From an uncultured Bacteroides sp. (GTDB taxonomy: Bacteria; Bacteroidota; Bacteroidia; Bacteroidales; Bacteroidaceae), in contig CAZKNB010000001.1 in assembly GCA_964554075.1 (NCBI GenBank), positions 1 through 40,698 of the forward strand: DNA of 40,698 bases, in the 5' to 3' direction. Below are positions 33,371-40,676 of this stretch, piece after piece. The notes beneath the pieces were generated by a model that saw only the letters and a list, made by a program, of their open reading frames with translations, was not told the origin of the DNA and searched no databases. Position 1 is the stretch's first letter; the number at the start of each line of letters is the position of its first letter. The position numbers were made by a program, and so were the translations under genes.

Positions 33371-33754
33371 ATGACAATGATAAAAGCAATGCTGGTCGCA
33401 GGTCTCGGAGGTTTCTTCGGAACCTGCGCTCGTTTTTTGGTGGGCAAGCTCGCCTCACACCTCTTCTCGTCGCCCTTTCCCTACGGCACCTTTACGGTGA
33501 ACGTGGTGGGCTGTTTCCTCATCGGAATATTTCTGGGGCTCAGCGAGCGTGCCAATCTGCTGTCGGCCAACCTGTCGCTCTTCCTGCTGACGGGCTTCTG
33601 CGGAGGTTTCACCACCTTCTCAACCTTTTCTGCCGACATGCTCCAACTCCTGCAGAGCGGACAGCGCGCCCTCTTTGCACTCTATCTCGTGCTGAGCATC
33701 CTGCTTGGCATCGCCTTCGTATTGATCGGACGCAGCATAGTGCGCCCCGCTTGA
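33371..33754 (+). CDS. crcB: Fluoride efflux channel Fluc/CrcB
   Basis: GGFFGTCARF, GTFTVNVVGCF, GFCGGFTTFSTF. Confidence 0.93.
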   Translation: MTMIKAMLVAGLGGFFGTCARFLVGKLASHLFSSPFPYGTFTVNVVGCFLIGIFLGLSERANLLSANLSLFLLTGFCGGFTTFSTFSADMLQLLQSGQRALFALYLVLSILLGIAFVLIGRSIVRPA

Positions 33755-33846: not shown

Positions 33847-34149
33847 ATGCATCTTACTCCCAAAGAGATTGATAAACTAATGCTGCTGTCGCTCGGAATG
33901 ATAGCAGAAAGACGCCTGCAGAGGGGACTGAAGCTCAACCATCCCGAAGCTGTGGCGTACATCACATGTGCAGCACTGGAGGGTGCGCGCGATGGTAAAA
34001 CTGTTGAGGAGGTAATGACTCTGGCTGCCGGAGTGCTGAAGCGTGAGGATGTCATGGAGGGCGTCCCCGACATGATCAAGCTGCTTCAGGTGGAGGCGGT
34101 GTTCACCGACGGGTCGCGACTGGTGAGCATCCATAGTCCGATAAAATAA
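33847..34149 (+). CDS. ureA: Urease subunit gamma
   Basis: [31 protein letters not shown]; 100 aa. Confidence 0.97.
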
Positions 34150-34198: not shown

Positions 34199-34888
34199 AT
34201 GACCAACGAACTACTTGTCCTCTCTGAAGATGGACACGGACACAAATCCACACGCAAGGCCTGCGACGCCAGCCATCCCATGAGCTATCCCGACACCAAA
34301 GGCTACCAGCCCGACACTGCCGTCCCTGTTGGCGGAGTGGTGCTCAGCTCCATCCCCATCGGCTACAACATGGGCCGACAGGTGGTGAAGGTTAGGGTGC
34401 ACAACACCGGCGACCGCCCCATCCAGGTGGGCTCTCACTTCCATTTCTTCGAGGTGAACCGCTACCTGAAGTTCAATCGTACAGCCGCCTACGGCACTCA
34501 TCTCAACATACCTGCCACAACAGCCATCCGCTTTGAGCCGGGCGACGAGCGCGAGGTGGAGCTCGTAGGCTTCGGCGGCAAGTGTCGCATCATCGGATTC
34601 AACGGACTCACCTCTGGCTATGCCGGCAGCGAGGACACTCCGACCTACTTCCCGACGCGCATACGTGCCATCGCCCGCATGATGAAGTATCGCTTCCGCA
34701 ACAGCGACTGCGGCTGCGGAGCCGACGGCTGCTACTGCGACTGCGATGAAAAGCCGGACTGCAACTGCAATACCGACGGCTGCAACTGCGATGACAATGG
34801 CTGCAACTGCGATGAGAAGCCGGGCGACGGTGGAAAGAGCTGCGACTGTGAACCGGAGGGCTGCAAGTGTGAAACAAAGAAAAAGTAA
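34199..34888 (+). CDS. ureB: Urease subunit beta with N-terminal extension and Cys-rich C-terminal tail
   Basis: [26 protein letters not shown]; 229 aa, much longer than a standard beta subunit. Confidence 0.95.
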
Positions 34889-34900
34889 AAAGGAGGGATT

Positions 34901-36619
34901 ATGACAACAATATCAAGACAAGAATACAACAATCTGTTCGGACCCACAATCGGGGACAAGATAAGACTAGGCGACACTAACCTTTATGTAGAGATTGAAC
35001 GCGACCTGCGCACCTATGGCGACGAGTCGGTCTATGGCGGCGGAAAGACCATACGCGACGGCATGGGACTCGCCAACAGCGTCACCTCAAAGGAGGGGGC
35101 ACTGGACCTCGTCATCACCAACGTGACGATTATCGATGCACGTCTTGGCGTGGTGAAGGCTGACGTGGGCATCAAGGATGGACGCATTGCCGGAGTGGGC
35201 AAGGCGGGCAATCCCAATATTATGGATGGGGTGGACCCGAATCTCGTCATCGGCGCTGCCACCGATGCCATCTCGGGCGAACATCTCATCCTCACCGCTG
35301 CCGCCATCGACGGACATGTCCACTTCATCTCGCCGCAACAGGCCTACCATGCACTGAGCAACGGCATCACCACTCTCATCGGCGGTGGCGTGGGACCTAC
35401 CGACGGCACCAATGGCACTACGATAACCTCCGGACCGTGGAACATGGACCGCATGTTGCAGGCTGCCGAGTCGCTCCCCGTCAACGTGGGCTTCCTGGGC
35501 AAGGGCAACTGCTCCGTGGACTATTCGCTCGAGGAGCAGGTGGCTGCCGGCGTCTGTGGCTTCAAGATCCATGAGGACTGGGGCTCCACACCGCAGGCCA
35601 TCCGCGCCGCCATGGCTGTGGCCGACCGCCACGATGTGCAGGTTGCCATCCATACCGATACGCTCAACGAGGCGGGCTACGTGGAGGATACTCTCGCAGC
35701 CATCGACGGACGCACCATCCATACCTACCACACCGAGGGCGCAGGTGGCGGTCACGCTCCCGACCTCCTCAAGGTGGCATCTATGAGCAATGTGCTTCCC
35801 TCGTCCACAAACCCCACAATCCCCTTCGGCATCAACTCGCAGGCTGAACTCTTTGACATGATTATGGTTTGCCACAATCTCAACCCGAAGATTCCCTCCG
35901 ACGTATCCTTTGCCGAGAGTCGCGTGCGCCCCGAGACGCAGGCGGCAGAGAATGTGCTCCACGACCTCGGTGTGCTCTCCATGATCTCCTCCGACTCGCA
36001 GGCGATGGGAAGAGTGGGAGAGTCCTTCATGCGCACCTTCCAGATGGCATCCTATATGAAGGATTCGCGCGGCAAGCTTGCCGAGGACTCCTTCGACAAC
36101 GACAACTATCGCGTGATGCGCTACATCGCCAAGGTGACCATCAATCCCGCCATCACCTTCGGCGTGTCGGACGTTCTCGGTACGGTGGAGAGGGGAAAGA
36201 TGGCGGACCTCGTGCTCTGGGAGCCGGAGTTCTTCGCTGCCAAGCCAAAGATGGTCATCAAGGGCGGCATCATCAGTTGGGCCAATATGGGCGACCCCAA
36301 CGCTTCGCTCCCCACGCCGCAACCCTGCTACTATCGCCCGATGTTCGGCGCCTACGGCACGGCGTTGCCCCACACCTGCATCTCCTTCGTATCGCGCATG
36401 GCGTGTGAGCTCGACATCAAGTCGCGCCTCTCCCTCCAGCGAAAGGTCTATCCCGTGCGCCGCACTCGTCAGATCACCAAGCGCGACATGCTCCACAATA
36501 GCTGTACACCGCGCATAGAGGTCAATCCCGAGACATTCGAGGTGATGGTCGACGGCACCCATGCATACGTCAAGCCCGCCGAGCGCTTCCCGCTGGGACA
36601 GCTCTACTGGTTCGGCTGA
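34901..36619 (+). CDS. ureC: Urease subunit alpha (catalytic, Ni-binding)
   Basis: [43 protein letters not shown]. Confidence 0.98.
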
Positions 36620-36653
36620 TGCAGAACTTCGTATCAAATTAATACGTCTGAAG

Positions 36654-37223
36654 ATGAAGATATATACAGAGATAATTGGAAATATGTGGCGCTCTGCCGA
36701 ATGGAAGCGCCGAGTGGAACAGACCGAACAAGATCACATCAGACTAGACCGCTGGATGGCTCAGAAGAGCCGCATGCTTGTGGCTGGCGAGAGCGGACGC
36801 ATGTACCGCATCTCGCTCCGCCGCGGCGAGCATCTCACCGATGGCGACATAATAGACTATTCGCCCCATGAGGGAGTCTCCGTGGTGGTGTCGGTCGAGA
36901 TGACCCAGGTGCTTGCCATCAACATGGACCAGGCTCTCGCCTCCGACCATAAGGCACTGATGCGCACGGCTGTCGAACTTGGTCACGCCCTCGGCAATCA
37001 GCATTGGCCGGCGGTGGTCAAGGACAACATGGTCTACGTGCCACTCGTTGCCGACCGCAAGGTGATGCAGAGCGTGATGGAGACCCACCACATCGAGGGG
37101 GTGAACTACAGCTTCGTGAATGGCATGGAGGTCATTCCCTACCTTTCGCCCCATGAGATGCGCATGCTCTTCTCCGCCCACGACGAACCAAAAGAGGACC
37201 ACAAACACAGATCAGATATATGA
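36654..37223 (+). CDS. ureE: Urease accessory nickel chaperone UreE
   Basis: ELGHALGNQHWP motif; position after ureC; ATG at 36654. Confidence 0.88.
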   Translation: MKIYTEIIGNMWRSAEWKRRVEQTEQDHIRLDRWMAQKSRMLVAGESGRMYRISLRRGEHLTDGDIIDYSPHEGVSVVVSVEMTQVLAINMDQALASDHKALMRTAVELGHALGNQHWPAVVKDNMVYVPLVADRKVMQSVMETHHIEGVNYSFVNGMEVIPYLSPHEMRMLFSAHDEPKEDHKHRSDI

Positions 37224-37927
37224 AAAGGCCCCTAGCAAGAGATGAACAATCTGCCTATGCTCGCCTCATTCAGCTCTCCGACTCCGCTCTGCCGATAGGT
37301 ACATTCTCCTTCTCGGCAGCGCTGGAGACGGCAGCTGCCGAGCGTCTCGTAGTCGATGCCGACTCGCTTCGACTCTATGTCCAGGCTGTAGTCCACCAGT
37401 CGCTCACCGCCGATGCCGTCGCTGCCATGTCGGCGTTCCGTGCCGCTTCGGAGGGCGACTACGAGGGTGTGCTCTATGCCGACCACGTCGTCATGATGTA
37501 TCGCATGGGCGAGGAGAGTCGCCGCATGCTCTGCCGCATGGGACGTCGCATGGCGGAGCTTGGCGCCCTGCTCACCGGATGTGAGATGGTGGAGCGCTGG
37601 AACTCCGACATCCGCAGCGGCACTACACCGGGAAGCCATCCCGTGGCACTCGCCCTCGTGGCCCACGCCATGGGACTCAGTCAGCGCATGCTCTTCGCCT
37701 CGCACATCTATGGCGTGGCGAGCCTCCCGCTCAATGCCGCCCTGCGTTGCGTCAAGGTCTCCCACTACGACACTCAGCTCATCCTCCACGACGTCGTCGC
37801 CGAGGCCATGAGCCGCTACAAGGATGTGGCGTCGCTCTCGATAAGCGACATGAATTGTTTCACTCCCGAACTCGATATACTCGCGTCGCTCCACGAGGTG
37901 GGCAGTCAGCGTATGTTTATGAATTAA
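37220..37927 (+). CDS. ureF: Urease accessory protein UreF
   Basis: LSDSALPIGTFSFS..LE, C-terminal HE..RMFMN. Confidence 0.92.
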   Translation: MKRPLARDEQSAYARLIQLSDSALPIGTFSFSAALETAAAERLVVDADSLRLYVQAVVHQSLTADAVAAMSAFRAASEGDYEGVLYADHVVMMYRMGEESRRMLCRMGRRMAELGALLTGCEMVERWNSDIRSGTTPGSHPVALALVAHAMGLSQRMLFASHIYGVASLPLNAALRCVKVSHYDTQLILHDVVAEAMSRYKDVASLSISDMNCFTPELDILASLHEVGSQRMFMN

Positions 37928-37940
37928 CTTCCCTTAGATT

Positions 37941-38582
37941 ATGACATTTAGAAAAGAGACTTGCAGAATAGGAATTGGCGGCCCCGTAGGCTCGGGCAAG
38001 ACTGCCATCATCGAGGCCATCACTCCGCGCCTCCTGCACCGCGGACTGAAGGTGCTCATCATTACCAATGACATCGTTACCACCGAGGATGCCAAGCATG
38101 TGCGCCGCACCCTCAAGGGCATCCTGCTCGAGGACCACATAGTGGGCGTGGAGACGGGGGCCTGTCCCCATACTGCCGTGCGCGAAGATCCTTCGATGAA
38201 CATCGCGGCGGTCGAGGAGATGGAGGCGCGCTTCCCCGACAGCGACGTGCTGCTCATCGAGTCGGGTGGCGACAACCTGACGCTCACCTTCAGTCCCGCC
38301 CTCGTCGACTTCTTCATCTATGTGATCGACGTTGCCGCGGGCGACAAGATTCCGCGTAAGGATGGACCCGGCATATCGCAGTCGGACATCCTGGTGATAA
38401 ACAAGACCGACCTCGCTCCCTACGTCCACGCCAGTCTTGAGGTGATGCGGCGCGACTCGGAGTTCATGCGTCGTGGCAAACCATTCATCTTCACCAACTG
38501 CATGACGGGCGAGGGCATCGAGGAGCTTGTCGACATGGTGATGGATATGGCGCTCTTCGACTCTCAATGTAGCTGTGACTAG
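37941..38582 (+). CDS. ureG: Urease accessory GTPase UreG
   Basis: [25 protein letters not shown]. Confidence 0.96.
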
Positions 38583-38587
38583 TGGCC

Positions 38588-39526
38588 ATGAAACGGATGG
38601 ATTACCTCATGCCCGACTTCTCGCCTCTGCCTGAGCTTCGCCCCTTCCTCGATCAGCCGCGTGCGATGCATGTCGGGGCGCCTGGCAAGTCGGGCTATCT
38701 GCGCATGCACTTCTCGCTCGACGCTCGTGGCGAATCGGTGCTCAGCGAGCTGGAGAGGCGTGTGCCTATCATTGTTCAGCAGGCGCTCTATTTCGATGAA
38801 AACATCCCCGGGATGCCTTGCGTCTATATCCTCTCTTCGGGTGGTCCCAATGTCGACGGCGACCGCTACCGCCAGGAGATAAGCGTGGGGCGCAATGCAT
38901 TTGCGCATATCTCTACGGGTGCTGCCACCAAGATTGCCTCCATGCGCTACAACTATTCGGCTCTTGCCCAGCATATCTCTCTCGACGAGGGTGCCTATCT
39001 GGAGTATCTGCCTGAGCCTACCATTCCCTGTGCTCATGCGCGCTACGTTTCCGACACTCTCCTCACCGTGGCTCCTACAGCCACTCTGGTCTACTCCGAG
39101 ATCTATCTCTCGGGACGCCGCCACTATGGCGAGGGTGAGATGTTTGCCTACGATCTTCTTTCGGTGGCGACGACGGGTGAACGCCCCGACGGCGTGAGGC
39201 TCTTCCGTGAGAAGTATGTGGTGCGGCCGGAGCTCCATAGCCCGCGTGTGATGGGTGAGATGGATGGCTACGATGTCTTCGCCAACGTTGTGGTGATGCT
39301 GCCCGAGGCCGCCGTCGACGCTCTCTATCGTCGCCTCCGCAGTCTTCCGGGGCGAAATCGTTCGGTGGCGGTTGGTGTGTCGCACCTTCCCTTCGGCGCC
39401 GGTCTTCAGGTGAAGTTGCTTGCCGACAGCAGCCAGACTGCCAAGATGTTCGTCCGCCACGTCTGTTCGCAGGTCCGGCAGACGGTCAAAGGCGTCCCCC
39501 TCCCCGAGGAGTTTGTTTGGAGGTGA
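38588..39526 (+). CDS. ureD: Urease accessory protein UreD
   Basis: SGGPNVDGD, TGAATKI, LEYLPEPTIP, GR..GE.F motifs; alternative GTG start 38582. Confidence 0.9.
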   Translation: MKRMDYLMPDFSPLPELRPFLDQPRAMHVGAPGKSGYLRMHFSLDARGESVLSELERRVPIIVQQALYFDENIPGMPCVYILSSGGPNVDGDRYRQEISVGRNAFAHISTGAATKIASMRYNYSALAQHISLDEGAYLEYLPEPTIPCAHARYVSDTLLTVAPTATLVYSEIYLSGRRHYGEGEMFAYDLLSVATTGERPDGVRLFREKYVVRPELHSPRVMGEMDGYDVFANVVVMLPEAAVDALYRRLRSLPGRNRSVAVGVSHLPFGAGLQVKLLADSSQTAKMFVRHVCSQVRQTVKGVPLPEEFVWR

Positions 39527-39532
39527 AATAGA

Positions 39533-39619
39533 TTGGAATATCCTCACAAACCAGTGAATATCTAATGAATTTTCAATATCCCCATAGGCCAAATGTAGGG
39601 TCGCTATGTATAGCGACCG
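39533..39619 (+). repeat. Dispersed 87-bp repeat ending in a GTAG REP-like hairpin
   Basis: 80/87 identical to 147-233 by manual alignment; ends in GTAG-GGTCGCTA-TGTA-TAGCGACC. Confidence 0.85.
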
Positions 39620-39650
39620 CCATAATGCCGCATGGTTCAATAGTTTAATT

Positions 39651-40676
39651 ATGGAATATAAAATTGATAATGATAAAAACAGGAGAGGAGTGTGGGCGGC
39701 AACCTACGCCATGATGCGCGGTGCCGGTCAGGTCATGTTCCAGAACAGCGTACTGACGGGACTGCTCTTCCTCGCCGGCATCCTTTGGGGTGCTGTCTCG
39801 ACAGGCACCCACCAGGTCTTCATCGGAGCACTGGTCGGACTTGTCGTCTCCACCATCACCGGGTGTTTGCTTCGTTTACCCATTGATGAGGGCGACGCCG
39901 GACTATGGGGCTTCAACGGCATACTTGTAGGCTGTGCCTTCCCCACCTTCCTCTCCTCAACGCCATTGATGTGGGTGGCACTGATTGTCTGCTCCATGCT
40001 CACCGTCTGGGTGCGCACGGGCATGAACCGCCTTCTGGCGCCCTTCAAGGTCAACTCGCTCACCTTCCCCTTCGTCTTCACCACGTGGCTCTTCATGCTT
40101 GCAGCACGCATGCTGTGGGCCATGCCGCCCGACGACCTCTCCAATCCCGAGCTGGTTGTGGTCCACCATCACCTGCACGCCTTCACTCCGGTGCTCTTCG
40201 TCGTTGCCCTCTTCAAGGGCATCGCGCAGGTCTTCCTCATCGATTCCGCCATCACGGGCTTCATCTTCCTCATCGCCCTGGCGGTGAGCAGTATGCGTGC
40301 CGCCCTGTGGGCACTCATCGGATCGGCACTCTCCCTGCTGCTTGCGCTGCTCTACGGCGCACCGCTCTCCGATGTTGCCCATGGACTCTACGGTTTCAGT
40401 CCCGTGCTGACAGCCATAGCGCTGGGAGCTACGTTCTACCGTCACAACCTGCGCACCATGCTTTGGACGCTGCTTGGCATCACCGTCACACTCTTCGTGC
40501 AGGCGGGAATGAATGGCTTGATGCTGCCCTACGGACTGCCAACCTTCACCGCCCCCTTCTGCCTGGTGACGTGGATATTCCTGCTTCCGCTCTATAAGTT
40601 CGACAGCCGGGAGCCCGACCATACCCACTGGCATAAGAGGAGGAAAACATCTGACGTCAAAACTAAAACCAACTGA
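39651..40676 (+). CDS. Urea transporter (UT/Yut family)
   Basis: Duplicated GAGQVMF/GIAQVFL, GLWGFN/GLYGFS and LTFPF/FTAPF motifs; ATG at 39651. Confidence 0.92.
   Translation: MEYKIDNDKNRRGVWAATYAMMRGAGQVMFQNSVLTGLLFLAGILWGAVSTGTHQVFIGALVGLVVSTITGCLLRLPIDEGDAGLWGFNGILVGCAFPTFLSSTPLMWVALIVCSMLTVWVRTGMNRLLAPFKVNSLTFPFVFTTWLFMLAARMLWAMPPDDLSNPELVVVHHHLHAFTPVLFVVALFKGIAQVFLIDSAITGFIFLIALAVSSMRAALWALIGSALSLLLALLYGAPLSDVAHGLYGFSPVLTAIALGATFYRHNLRTMLWTLLGITVTLFVQAGMNGLMLPYGLPTFTAPFCLVTWIFLLPLYKFDSREPDHTHWHKRRKTSDVKTKTN

What the first reader, a model, noticed from the sequence alone, without database searches (positions are those of the whole stretch)
34709..34888. Metallothionein-like 15-Cys tail fused to the urease beta subunit
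Seen: after the normal UreB C-terminal helix (..[13 protein letters not shown]) the reading frame continues with [60 protein letters not shown]. This holds 15 Cys, all in CxC or CxCxC motifs, in an acidic Gly-rich background. Established: CxC-rich, low-aromatic segments are the hallmark of metallothioneins, and urease systems usually buffer Ni with His-rich tails or proteins (UreE tail, Hpn). From recall, Yersinia UreB ends near the position where this tail begins. Inference: a structural subunit may carry its own thiolate metal store (Ni reservoir, or a sink for inhibitory Zn/Cu/Cd, or a redox buffer). I know of no described case.
Basis: partly seen in the sequence, partly recalled or inferred. 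Interest (0 to 1): 0.88.

Follow-up and report, generated by a model that had tools for sequence, protein, structure and literature searches.

The report
Cysteine-repeat tail on urease beta subunit
The urease beta subunit of this uncultured, likely Bacteroidales bacterium ends in a real 60-residue tail with 15 cysteines, kept in related strains and built from repeats of a motif that binds copper and zinc in another protein, so the enzyme likely carries its own metal sponge, though metal binding here is untested.

Summary
ureB (34199-34888, 229 aa) runs in frame into a 60-residue acidic tail with 15 Cys, all in CxC and no His. It is not an assembly error: 13 of 13 members of its 90% cluster carry the tail, and contigs of another run span the junction without gaps. 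Similar tails occur in 10 more protein clusters and 2 other genomes; most close UreBs lack one. Cysteines are conserved among strain variants (1 of 108 columns varies, against 30 of 339 others; post-hoc grouping), while whole repeat units come and go (15/17/19 Cys). The unit is CxC-x4-CxC, the motif with which CopY binds Cu(I) and Zn(II). Best reading: a flexible, metallothionein-like Zn/Cu(I) sponge on urease that likely shields the enzyme from inhibitory soft metals (0.5). It fails membership of any metallothionein family, and I found no description in the papers searched. This scan has noted similar Cys tails on other proteins (GrpE, SHMT, pyrophosphatase), so this is a new variant of a known kind. 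Interest 0.55.

The parts
34199..34888 (+). ureB, urease beta subunit, 229 aa (a start at 34280 would give 202 aa)
   Evidence: best solved relatives 4Z42 and 6YL3
34199..34279 (+). N-terminal extension with 3 His and 1 Cys, shared by the four closest tailed clusters
   Evidence: some database calls start at the later Met
34337..34618 (+). Urease_beta domain (PF00699, residues 47-140)
   Evidence: pLDDT mostly above 90
34652..34687 (+). C-terminal 'central helix' (residues 152-163), which forms the inter-trimer threefold core in the Yersinia dodecamer
   Evidence: searches (helix; PMC7547064 passages) for its role in Yersinia
34706..34885 (+). Cys-rich acidic tail: 60 aa, 15 Cys, four overlapping CxC-x4-CxC motifs
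34735..34815 (+). 21-nt tandem repeat (3.7 copies, 7 aa per unit) whose copy number differs among strains
34889..34900 (+). 12-nt spacer with GGAGG, likely the ribosome-binding site of ureC
33847..34149 (+). ureA, urease gamma subunit
34901..36619 (+). ureC, catalytic subunit; mobile-flap Cys at residue 324
36651..37223 (+). ureE with a short, His-poor C-terminus (3 His)
37220..37927 (+). ureF
37941..38582 (+). ureG; ends in a CxC seen in 1 of 34 UreG ends examined
38582..39526 (+). ureD
39606..40676 (+). urea transporter (PF03253); the contig ends right after it
33371..33754 (+). crcB/Fluc fluoride channel just upstream of ureA

Best explanation
The urease beta subunit ends in an in-frame, repeat-built tail of CxC pairs that is predicted to be unstructured without metal and likely works as a metallothionein-like sponge, probably holding Zn(II) at rest and swapping it for Cu(I) or other soft metals so that they would not reach the enzyme's flap cysteine or nickel site. 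Shown: the tail, its frame, its CxC-x4-CxC build, Cys conservation, repeat-number variation and its position directly after the central helix. Inferred: metal binding, Zn-to-Cu(I) exchange as in CopY, a rough capacity of 4-5 Zn or 7-8 Cu(I) per tail (my estimate from the CopY ratios and recalled metallothionein ratios), and protection of urease. If the enzyme assembles like Yersinia urease (untested), three tails would meet at each of four vertices, 180 Cys per particle. Whether it guards urease specifically or just rides on an abundant protein as a cell-wide buffer cannot be told here.
For: 137 of 138 Cys in 12 tails lie in CxC, none in CC; the commonest spacer between pairs is 4 (21 of 55), and the window's tail has four overlapping CxC-x4-CxC. 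A peptide with this motif from CopY is disordered alone and forms Cu2L, Cu4L2, ZnL and ZnL2 complexes, and Cu(I) displaces Zn in CopY (PMC12648655). Ciliate copper-thioneins have 92% of their Cys in CXC (PMC4862169). Among strain variants, 1 of 108 Cys columns varies against 30 of 339 others (Fisher p=0.002). Whole units are gained and lost (15/17/19, 5/10, 13/15, 5/8/9, 6/10/14 Cys), which fits capacity rather than a fixed site. The model has a confident core and a tail at pLDDT 45-53 with no secondary structure. UreC keeps the flap Cys, and Hg, Ag and Cu inhibit ureases (PMC6077230).
Against: No metal binding was measured. The conservation test used groups formed after a first, cruder run gave p=0.38 (two tail types of equal length were mixed), its columns are not independent, and repeat homogenisation can mimic selection. 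Most close UreBs work without the tail: 2 of 152 distinct UreB ends from other genomes have 5 or more Cys, and some strains halve it. The tail is net acidic (-9), whereas ciliate Cu-thioneins favour CKC. No metal-resistance gene lies beside the operon in the window, and the contig ends after the urea transporter. Low pLDDT also arises because the predictor does not model metal clusters.
Confidence: 0.5

Rival explanations
1. Nickel store or relay: the tail holds Ni(II) next to the enzyme and stands in for the His-rich tail of UreE.
For: All three tailed loci with context have a His-poor UreE end (3, 2, 2 His) against a median of 7 in 95 others, 6 of which have 3 or fewer; Spearman -0.28, p=0.005, uncorrected for kinship. 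One relative's tail mixes 10 Cys and 7 His, another has 3 His. CxC occurs inside the UreE His tail in 4 of 98 loci. His/Cys tails bind Ni and Zn in SlyD (PMC3292732).
Against: The window's tail has no His. The three loci are only two lineages. In two of them UreE is fused to UreF, which may itself have removed the tail. The window's nearest UreC relatives have 3 and 5 His without any Cys tail. No independent-pairs test visible in the output was significant (median p 0.25-1; part of the output was cut). Known maturation passes Ni from UreE to UreG and through a tunnel in UreFD (PMC11672702), with no step for a subunit tail. That all-thiolate clusters prefer Cu(I) and Zn over Ni is recalled.
Confidence: 0.2
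2. Tolerated repeat expansion with little function: slippage of a short CxC-coding unit in a free C-terminus.
For: The DNA is a 21-nt tandem repeat, copy number varies within clusters, this position holds many unrelated low-complexity tails in relatives, and most relatives lack Cys there.
Against: Cys columns vary about ten times less than spacer columns. Different repeat units (6, 7, 10 and 13 aa) in different lineages all keep CxC. Tails 65-69% apart in the full protein keep 10-16 Cys.
Confidence: 0.13
3. Redox or cross-linking role: the thiols absorb oxidants and thiol-reactive compounds that would hit the flap Cys, or link neighbouring subunits at the threefold vertex by disulfides or shared metals, replacing the usual oligomerisation tail.
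For: The tail follows the helix that forms the inter-trimer core; in H. pylori the loop at this place binds the next trimer (PMC7547064). The flap Cys is a target of quinones and selenium compounds (PMC6077230, PMC9923736). The CopY motif dimerises through metal.
Against: CxC is a poor intramolecular disulfide motif and the cytoplasm of an anaerobe is reducing (both recalled); strong length variation suits a structural clamp badly.
Confidence: 0.12
4. The tail is a substrate for a modifying enzyme or is released as a separate peptide (RiPP-like).
For: Cys-rich strings are modified in some peptide pathways (recalled); an earlier scan note proposed this for another tail (unchecked).
Against: No modifying enzyme is evident beside the operon in the window or in G691/G659 (ORF lists, only partly annotated). 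PF05114 was not found in this genome (66% complete).
Confidence: 0.05

Closest known systems
CopY C-terminal CxCxxxxCxC motif (Enterococcus hirae; PMC12648655)
   Same: Same Cys spacing at a protein's C-terminus, followed by Lys residues; binds Cu(I) and Zn(II) and dimerises through metal in that study.
   Different: One motif on a DNA-binding repressor of Gram-positive bacteria; here a chain of motifs of variable number on an enzyme subunit. No homology is shown, and it is probably convergent.
Copper-thioneins of ciliates (Tetrahymena subfamily 7b; PMC4862169) and other modular metallothioneins
   Same: CxC-only pattern, growth by tandem modules, few aromatics, Lys over Arg.
   Different: Those are free, metal-induced proteins, often with CKC; this is a fused, acidic tail with no family match.
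TrxA thioredoxin-metallothionein chimera of Runella aurantiaca (PMC13578184)
   Same: An enzyme domain fused to a roughly 60-residue Cys-rich C-terminal domain; metal binding was measured there.
   Different: That domain is SmtA-like (16% Cys, mixed motifs); this tail has 25% Cys, is CxC-only, repeat-built and varies in length.
His/Cys-rich tails of SlyD (PMC3292732), HspA and UreE
   Same: Flexible metal-binding C-terminal appendages tied to nickel-enzyme maturation; relative P0175 has such a mixed tail.
   Different: Those are His-rich and sit on chaperones; the window's tail has no His and sits on a structural subunit of the enzyme. HspA details are recalled.
Yersinia enterocolitica urease UreB (PDB 6YL3, 4Z42; PMC7547064)
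   Same: Best sequence and fold match; N-terminal extension, loop and central helix are all present.
   Different: The Yersinia chain stops where this tail starts; a dodecamer is not shown for this enzyme.

Membership tests
Urease beta subunit (PF00699, TIGR00192) | Profile match above cut-off, within ureABC-EFGD | tested here: met
Yersinia-type dodecameric urease | Loop plus central helix after the beta domain | tested here: met
   alignment to 4Z42/6YL3 through residue 167-169; helix 152-163
Yersinia-type dodecameric urease | Tetramer-of-trimers assembly | not testable with these tools
   needs SEC-MALS or cryo-EM
Metallothioneins | Short, very Cys-rich, low-aromatic sequence with Cys in short motifs | tested here: met
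   60 aa, 25% Cys, 1 aromatic, Lys 7 over Arg 0; compared with Table 1 of PMC13578184
Metallothioneins | Match to a curated metallothionein family | tested here: not met
   Tail alone: no Pfam family at E up to 10 and no NCBIfam family at E up to 0.1; 1 of 7 relatives touches PF12749 at E 1.1, below cut-off
Metallothioneins | Stand-alone small protein | tested here: not met
   in frame with UreB; no stop between them in 13 of 13 cluster members
Metallothioneins | Metal-thiolate clusters formed on metal binding | not testable with these tools
   needs ESI-MS, ICP and UV/CD
His/Cys nickel-binding tails (SlyD, HspA, UreE) | His-rich segment | tested here: not met
   0 His in the window's tail; met only in P0175 (7 His) and weakly in P0004 (3)
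CopY-type metal site | CxC-x4-CxC spacing | tested here: met
   four overlapping copies
CopY-type metal site | Attached to a CopY repressor domain | tested here: not met
   only the Urease_beta domain is found
Cys-modified peptide (MNIO/DUF692 pathway) | PF05114 enzyme nearby or in the genome | tested here: inconclusive
   none found; genome 66% complete

The most novel reading that the evidence does not exclude
Some gut-type Bacteroidales have moved the metal store of the urease system from the chaperone UreE onto the enzyme itself: a dodecamer carrying about 180 thiolates, gathered three tails to a vertex, that feeds nickel to its own active sites, with capacity tuned strain by strain through repeat slippage.
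Probability: 0.15. Interest if true: 0.8.

Novelty: new variant of a known kind. Interest (0 to 1): 0.55.

Why it matters
Urease maturation is among the best-studied metal-delivery pathways, and the beta subunit is regarded as a scaffold (PMC7547064). A conserved thiolate array on it would add a metal-handling role to the enzyme itself. It also offers natural length variants (5 to 26 Cys; one His/Cys form) with which to test what makes a tail prefer Cu, Zn or Ni. It extends the short list of bacterial metallothionein-like sequences and supports the idea that such tails arise by repeat expansion on various host proteins. It is not a new kind of system, and its function is untested.

Tried and rejected
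Assembly or read-through artefact: rejected.

Expression of the tail: RNA-run contigs X2 and X4 covered parts of ureA, ureB and ureC but not 34515-34879; this says nothing either way, and raw reads across the tail were not seen. Of the 24 runs listed, only 4 were laid, so habitat labels ('gut', 'freshwater') are not used as evidence.

Several independent origins: not shown. The UreB-core tree needs 6 changes for 11 tailed rows of 114 (at least 2 on well-supported branches), but AU tests do not reject one clade (p=0.55; UreC, 3 of 35 rows, p=0.34).

First conservation test: 9 of 104 versus 39 of 313, p=0.38, redone after splitting mismatched tail types. The alignment of six repeat units is circular, because the units were picked by their CxC, and is not used.

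UreE compensation: not significant after allowing for kinship (35 of 138 loci dropped for a missing or unmatched gene, 5 as duplicates).

Same tail on other proteins of this genome: none in six frames (66% complete). The pattern search in G691/G659 hit ureB of G691; the other hits were not translated.

Three-copy complex prediction of UreB: no verdict. Structure from an 8-row alignment: too poor to use. ESM Atlas: no usable hit for two tails. The tail-only protein search found 2 of 5 candidates, both already known. The search of 50% representatives showed no further CxC-repeat UreB tail among its best 150. The metagenome scan read 3 of 64 parts and gave no tailed locus. No promoter or terminator signal above chance. 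HMA and NicO families were not found in this genome (incomplete).

Full report
Observation. The window is contig C1 of a 1.67-Mb assembly, 66% complete. It ends in a urease operon: ureA, ureB, ureC, ureE, ureF, ureG, ureD and a urea transporter, with crcB upstream. No call names the organism; the closest named UreB relatives are mostly Bacteroides, Muribaculaceae and Alistipes records, so Bacteroidales is an inference. ureB (34199-34888) encodes 229 aa. After the beta domain (47-140) and a helix (152-163) the frame continues for 60 residues with 15 Cys, all in CxC, net charge -9, no His and one Tyr. Y. enterocolitica UreB aligns up to residue 169 and ends there. The finding is exactly as described.

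Is it real? Yes. All 13 members of the window's 90% cluster, from several sources, carry the tail with 15, 17 or 19 Cys. Contigs of run X1 cross the junction and the stop without gaps and with a few substitutions. The stop sits 12 nt before ureC with a GGAGG between, an ordinary spacing. Raw reads were not seen, and RNA contigs did not cover the tail.

How widespread? Among the 162 proteins listed by two searches (best 120 each of about 8,000 scored), 11 clusters, the window's own included, have tails with at least two CxC; they hold 4 to 26 Cys. Two genomes of another genus in the same family, G691 and G659, have a tail built on a 6-residue unit. Across 207 genome loci (with overlap), 2 of 152 distinct UreB ends have 5 or more Cys and 17 have 2-4. 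Many others end in an acidic EAEAEY-type stretch or stop after the helix. Urease itself is patchy: 15 of 250 genomes of the genus. Repeat units differ between lineages (6, 7, 10, 13 aa), which suggests separate expansions, but neither tree rejects a single origin.

Is it under selection? Among equal-length strain variants, 1 of 108 Cys columns varies against 30 of 339 other columns (p=0.002). This grouping followed a cruder run that gave p=0.38 because two tail types were mixed. The columns are not independent, so this is good but not rigorous evidence. At the same time whole units are gained or lost within clusters, matching a 21-nt tandem repeat in the DNA. Cys identity matters and exact length does not: the pattern of a capacity element rather than a fixed domain or catalytic site. 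The structure model agrees as far as it can: confident core, best match 6YL3, tail without structure.

Which metal? In 12 tails, 137 of 138 Cys are in CxC and none in CC; four residues is the commonest spacer. CxC-x4-CxC is the motif by which CopY binds Zn(II) at rest and Cu(I) on exchange; the isolated peptide is disordered and forms Cu2L, Cu4L2, ZnL and ZnL2 (PMC12648655: abstract, Introduction and one results section read). Ciliate Cu-thioneins are 92% CXC (PMC4862169, passages). Urease is inhibited by Hg, Ag and Cu and has a reactive flap Cys (PMC6077230 and PMC9923736, passages), which this UreC keeps. I therefore favour a Zn/Cu(I) sponge that likely protects the enzyme (0.5). In Yersinia urease the helix before this position forms the inter-trimer threefold core (PMC7547064, passages; a supplement search found nothing and one file was unreadable). 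If this enzyme assembles alike, three tails would meet per vertex; that is untested.

Nickel rival. The three tailed loci with context have His-poor UreE ends (3, 2, 2) against a median of 7 in 95 others, and one relative's tail mixes Cys and His. But this is two lineages, one with a UreE-UreF fusion. The window's nearest relatives are also His-poor without a Cys tail, and the kin-corrected tests seen were not significant. Known maturation runs through UreE, UreG and UreFD (PMC11672702, passages). I give it 0.2. Neutral expansion (0.13), redox or cross-linking (0.12) and peptide modification (0.05) are weaker.

Comparison and novelty. It works like a metallothionein domain but is not a member of a metallothionein family: no profile match and not a free protein. 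Metal tails on other proteins are known: SlyD (PMC3292732, passages) and a thioredoxin-metallothionein chimera (PMC13578184, abstract and part of the Results). Three searches for a Cys-rich or metallothionein-like UreB gave 0, 0 and 1 papers, the last about a fungal ferroportin homologue (listing only). Two broader searches were seen as listings. The library lacks most subscription journals, and bioRxiv supplements were not visible, so absence from print is not proven. The scan's own notes hold no look-alike of this sequence but describe similar Cys tails on GrpE, SHMT and membrane pyrophosphatases in other genomes (unchecked). No second such tail was found in this genome. Verdict: real, apparently undescribed on urease, a new variant of a known kind; interest 0.55.

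Noticed in passing
window 33371-33754: A crcB/Fluc fluoride channel lies just upstream of ureA, and a crcB match occurs in 24 of 60 urease loci examined, the window included. Fluoride inhibits urease (PMC6077230), so the linkage may be functional.
   Followed up: partly
window 38568-38582: UreG ends in a CxC, seen in 1 of 34 UreG ends examined: a second small Cys addition in the same operon.
   Followed up: partly
window 34199-34279: The N-terminal extension of UreB carries His and Cys and is shared by P0001-P0004, the same clusters that have long tails.
   Followed up: no
L187 6579-7838 and L188 6385-7632 (G691, G659): UreE and UreF are fused into one 415-419 aa protein in both genomes with a Cys-tailed UreB; CbiM/CbiQ-type transporter genes follow the operon.
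   Followed up: partly
L003-L050, L212-L273: Many Bacteroidales UreBs end in a conserved acidic EAEAEY-type stretch after the central helix, at the place of the H. pylori oligomerisation loop; its role is unexplored.
   Followed up: no
L034, L274, L321, L338: CxC motifs occur inside the His-rich UreE tail in 4 of 98 loci.
   Followed up: no
G000 C58:335-2296 (partly in L359): A P-type ATPase with a Cys/His-rich N-terminus, probably a heavy-metal exporter.
   Followed up: partly
L002 (G006): The same genus also holds a second urease type with fused gamma-beta subunits; 6 of the 14 other urease-bearing genomes in the genus score low like it, which suggests separate acquisitions.
   Followed up: no
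family of G1023 (Alistipes record L021): Urease is common there, 92 of 301 genomes sampled, against 3 of 400 sampled in the window's family.
   Followed up: no
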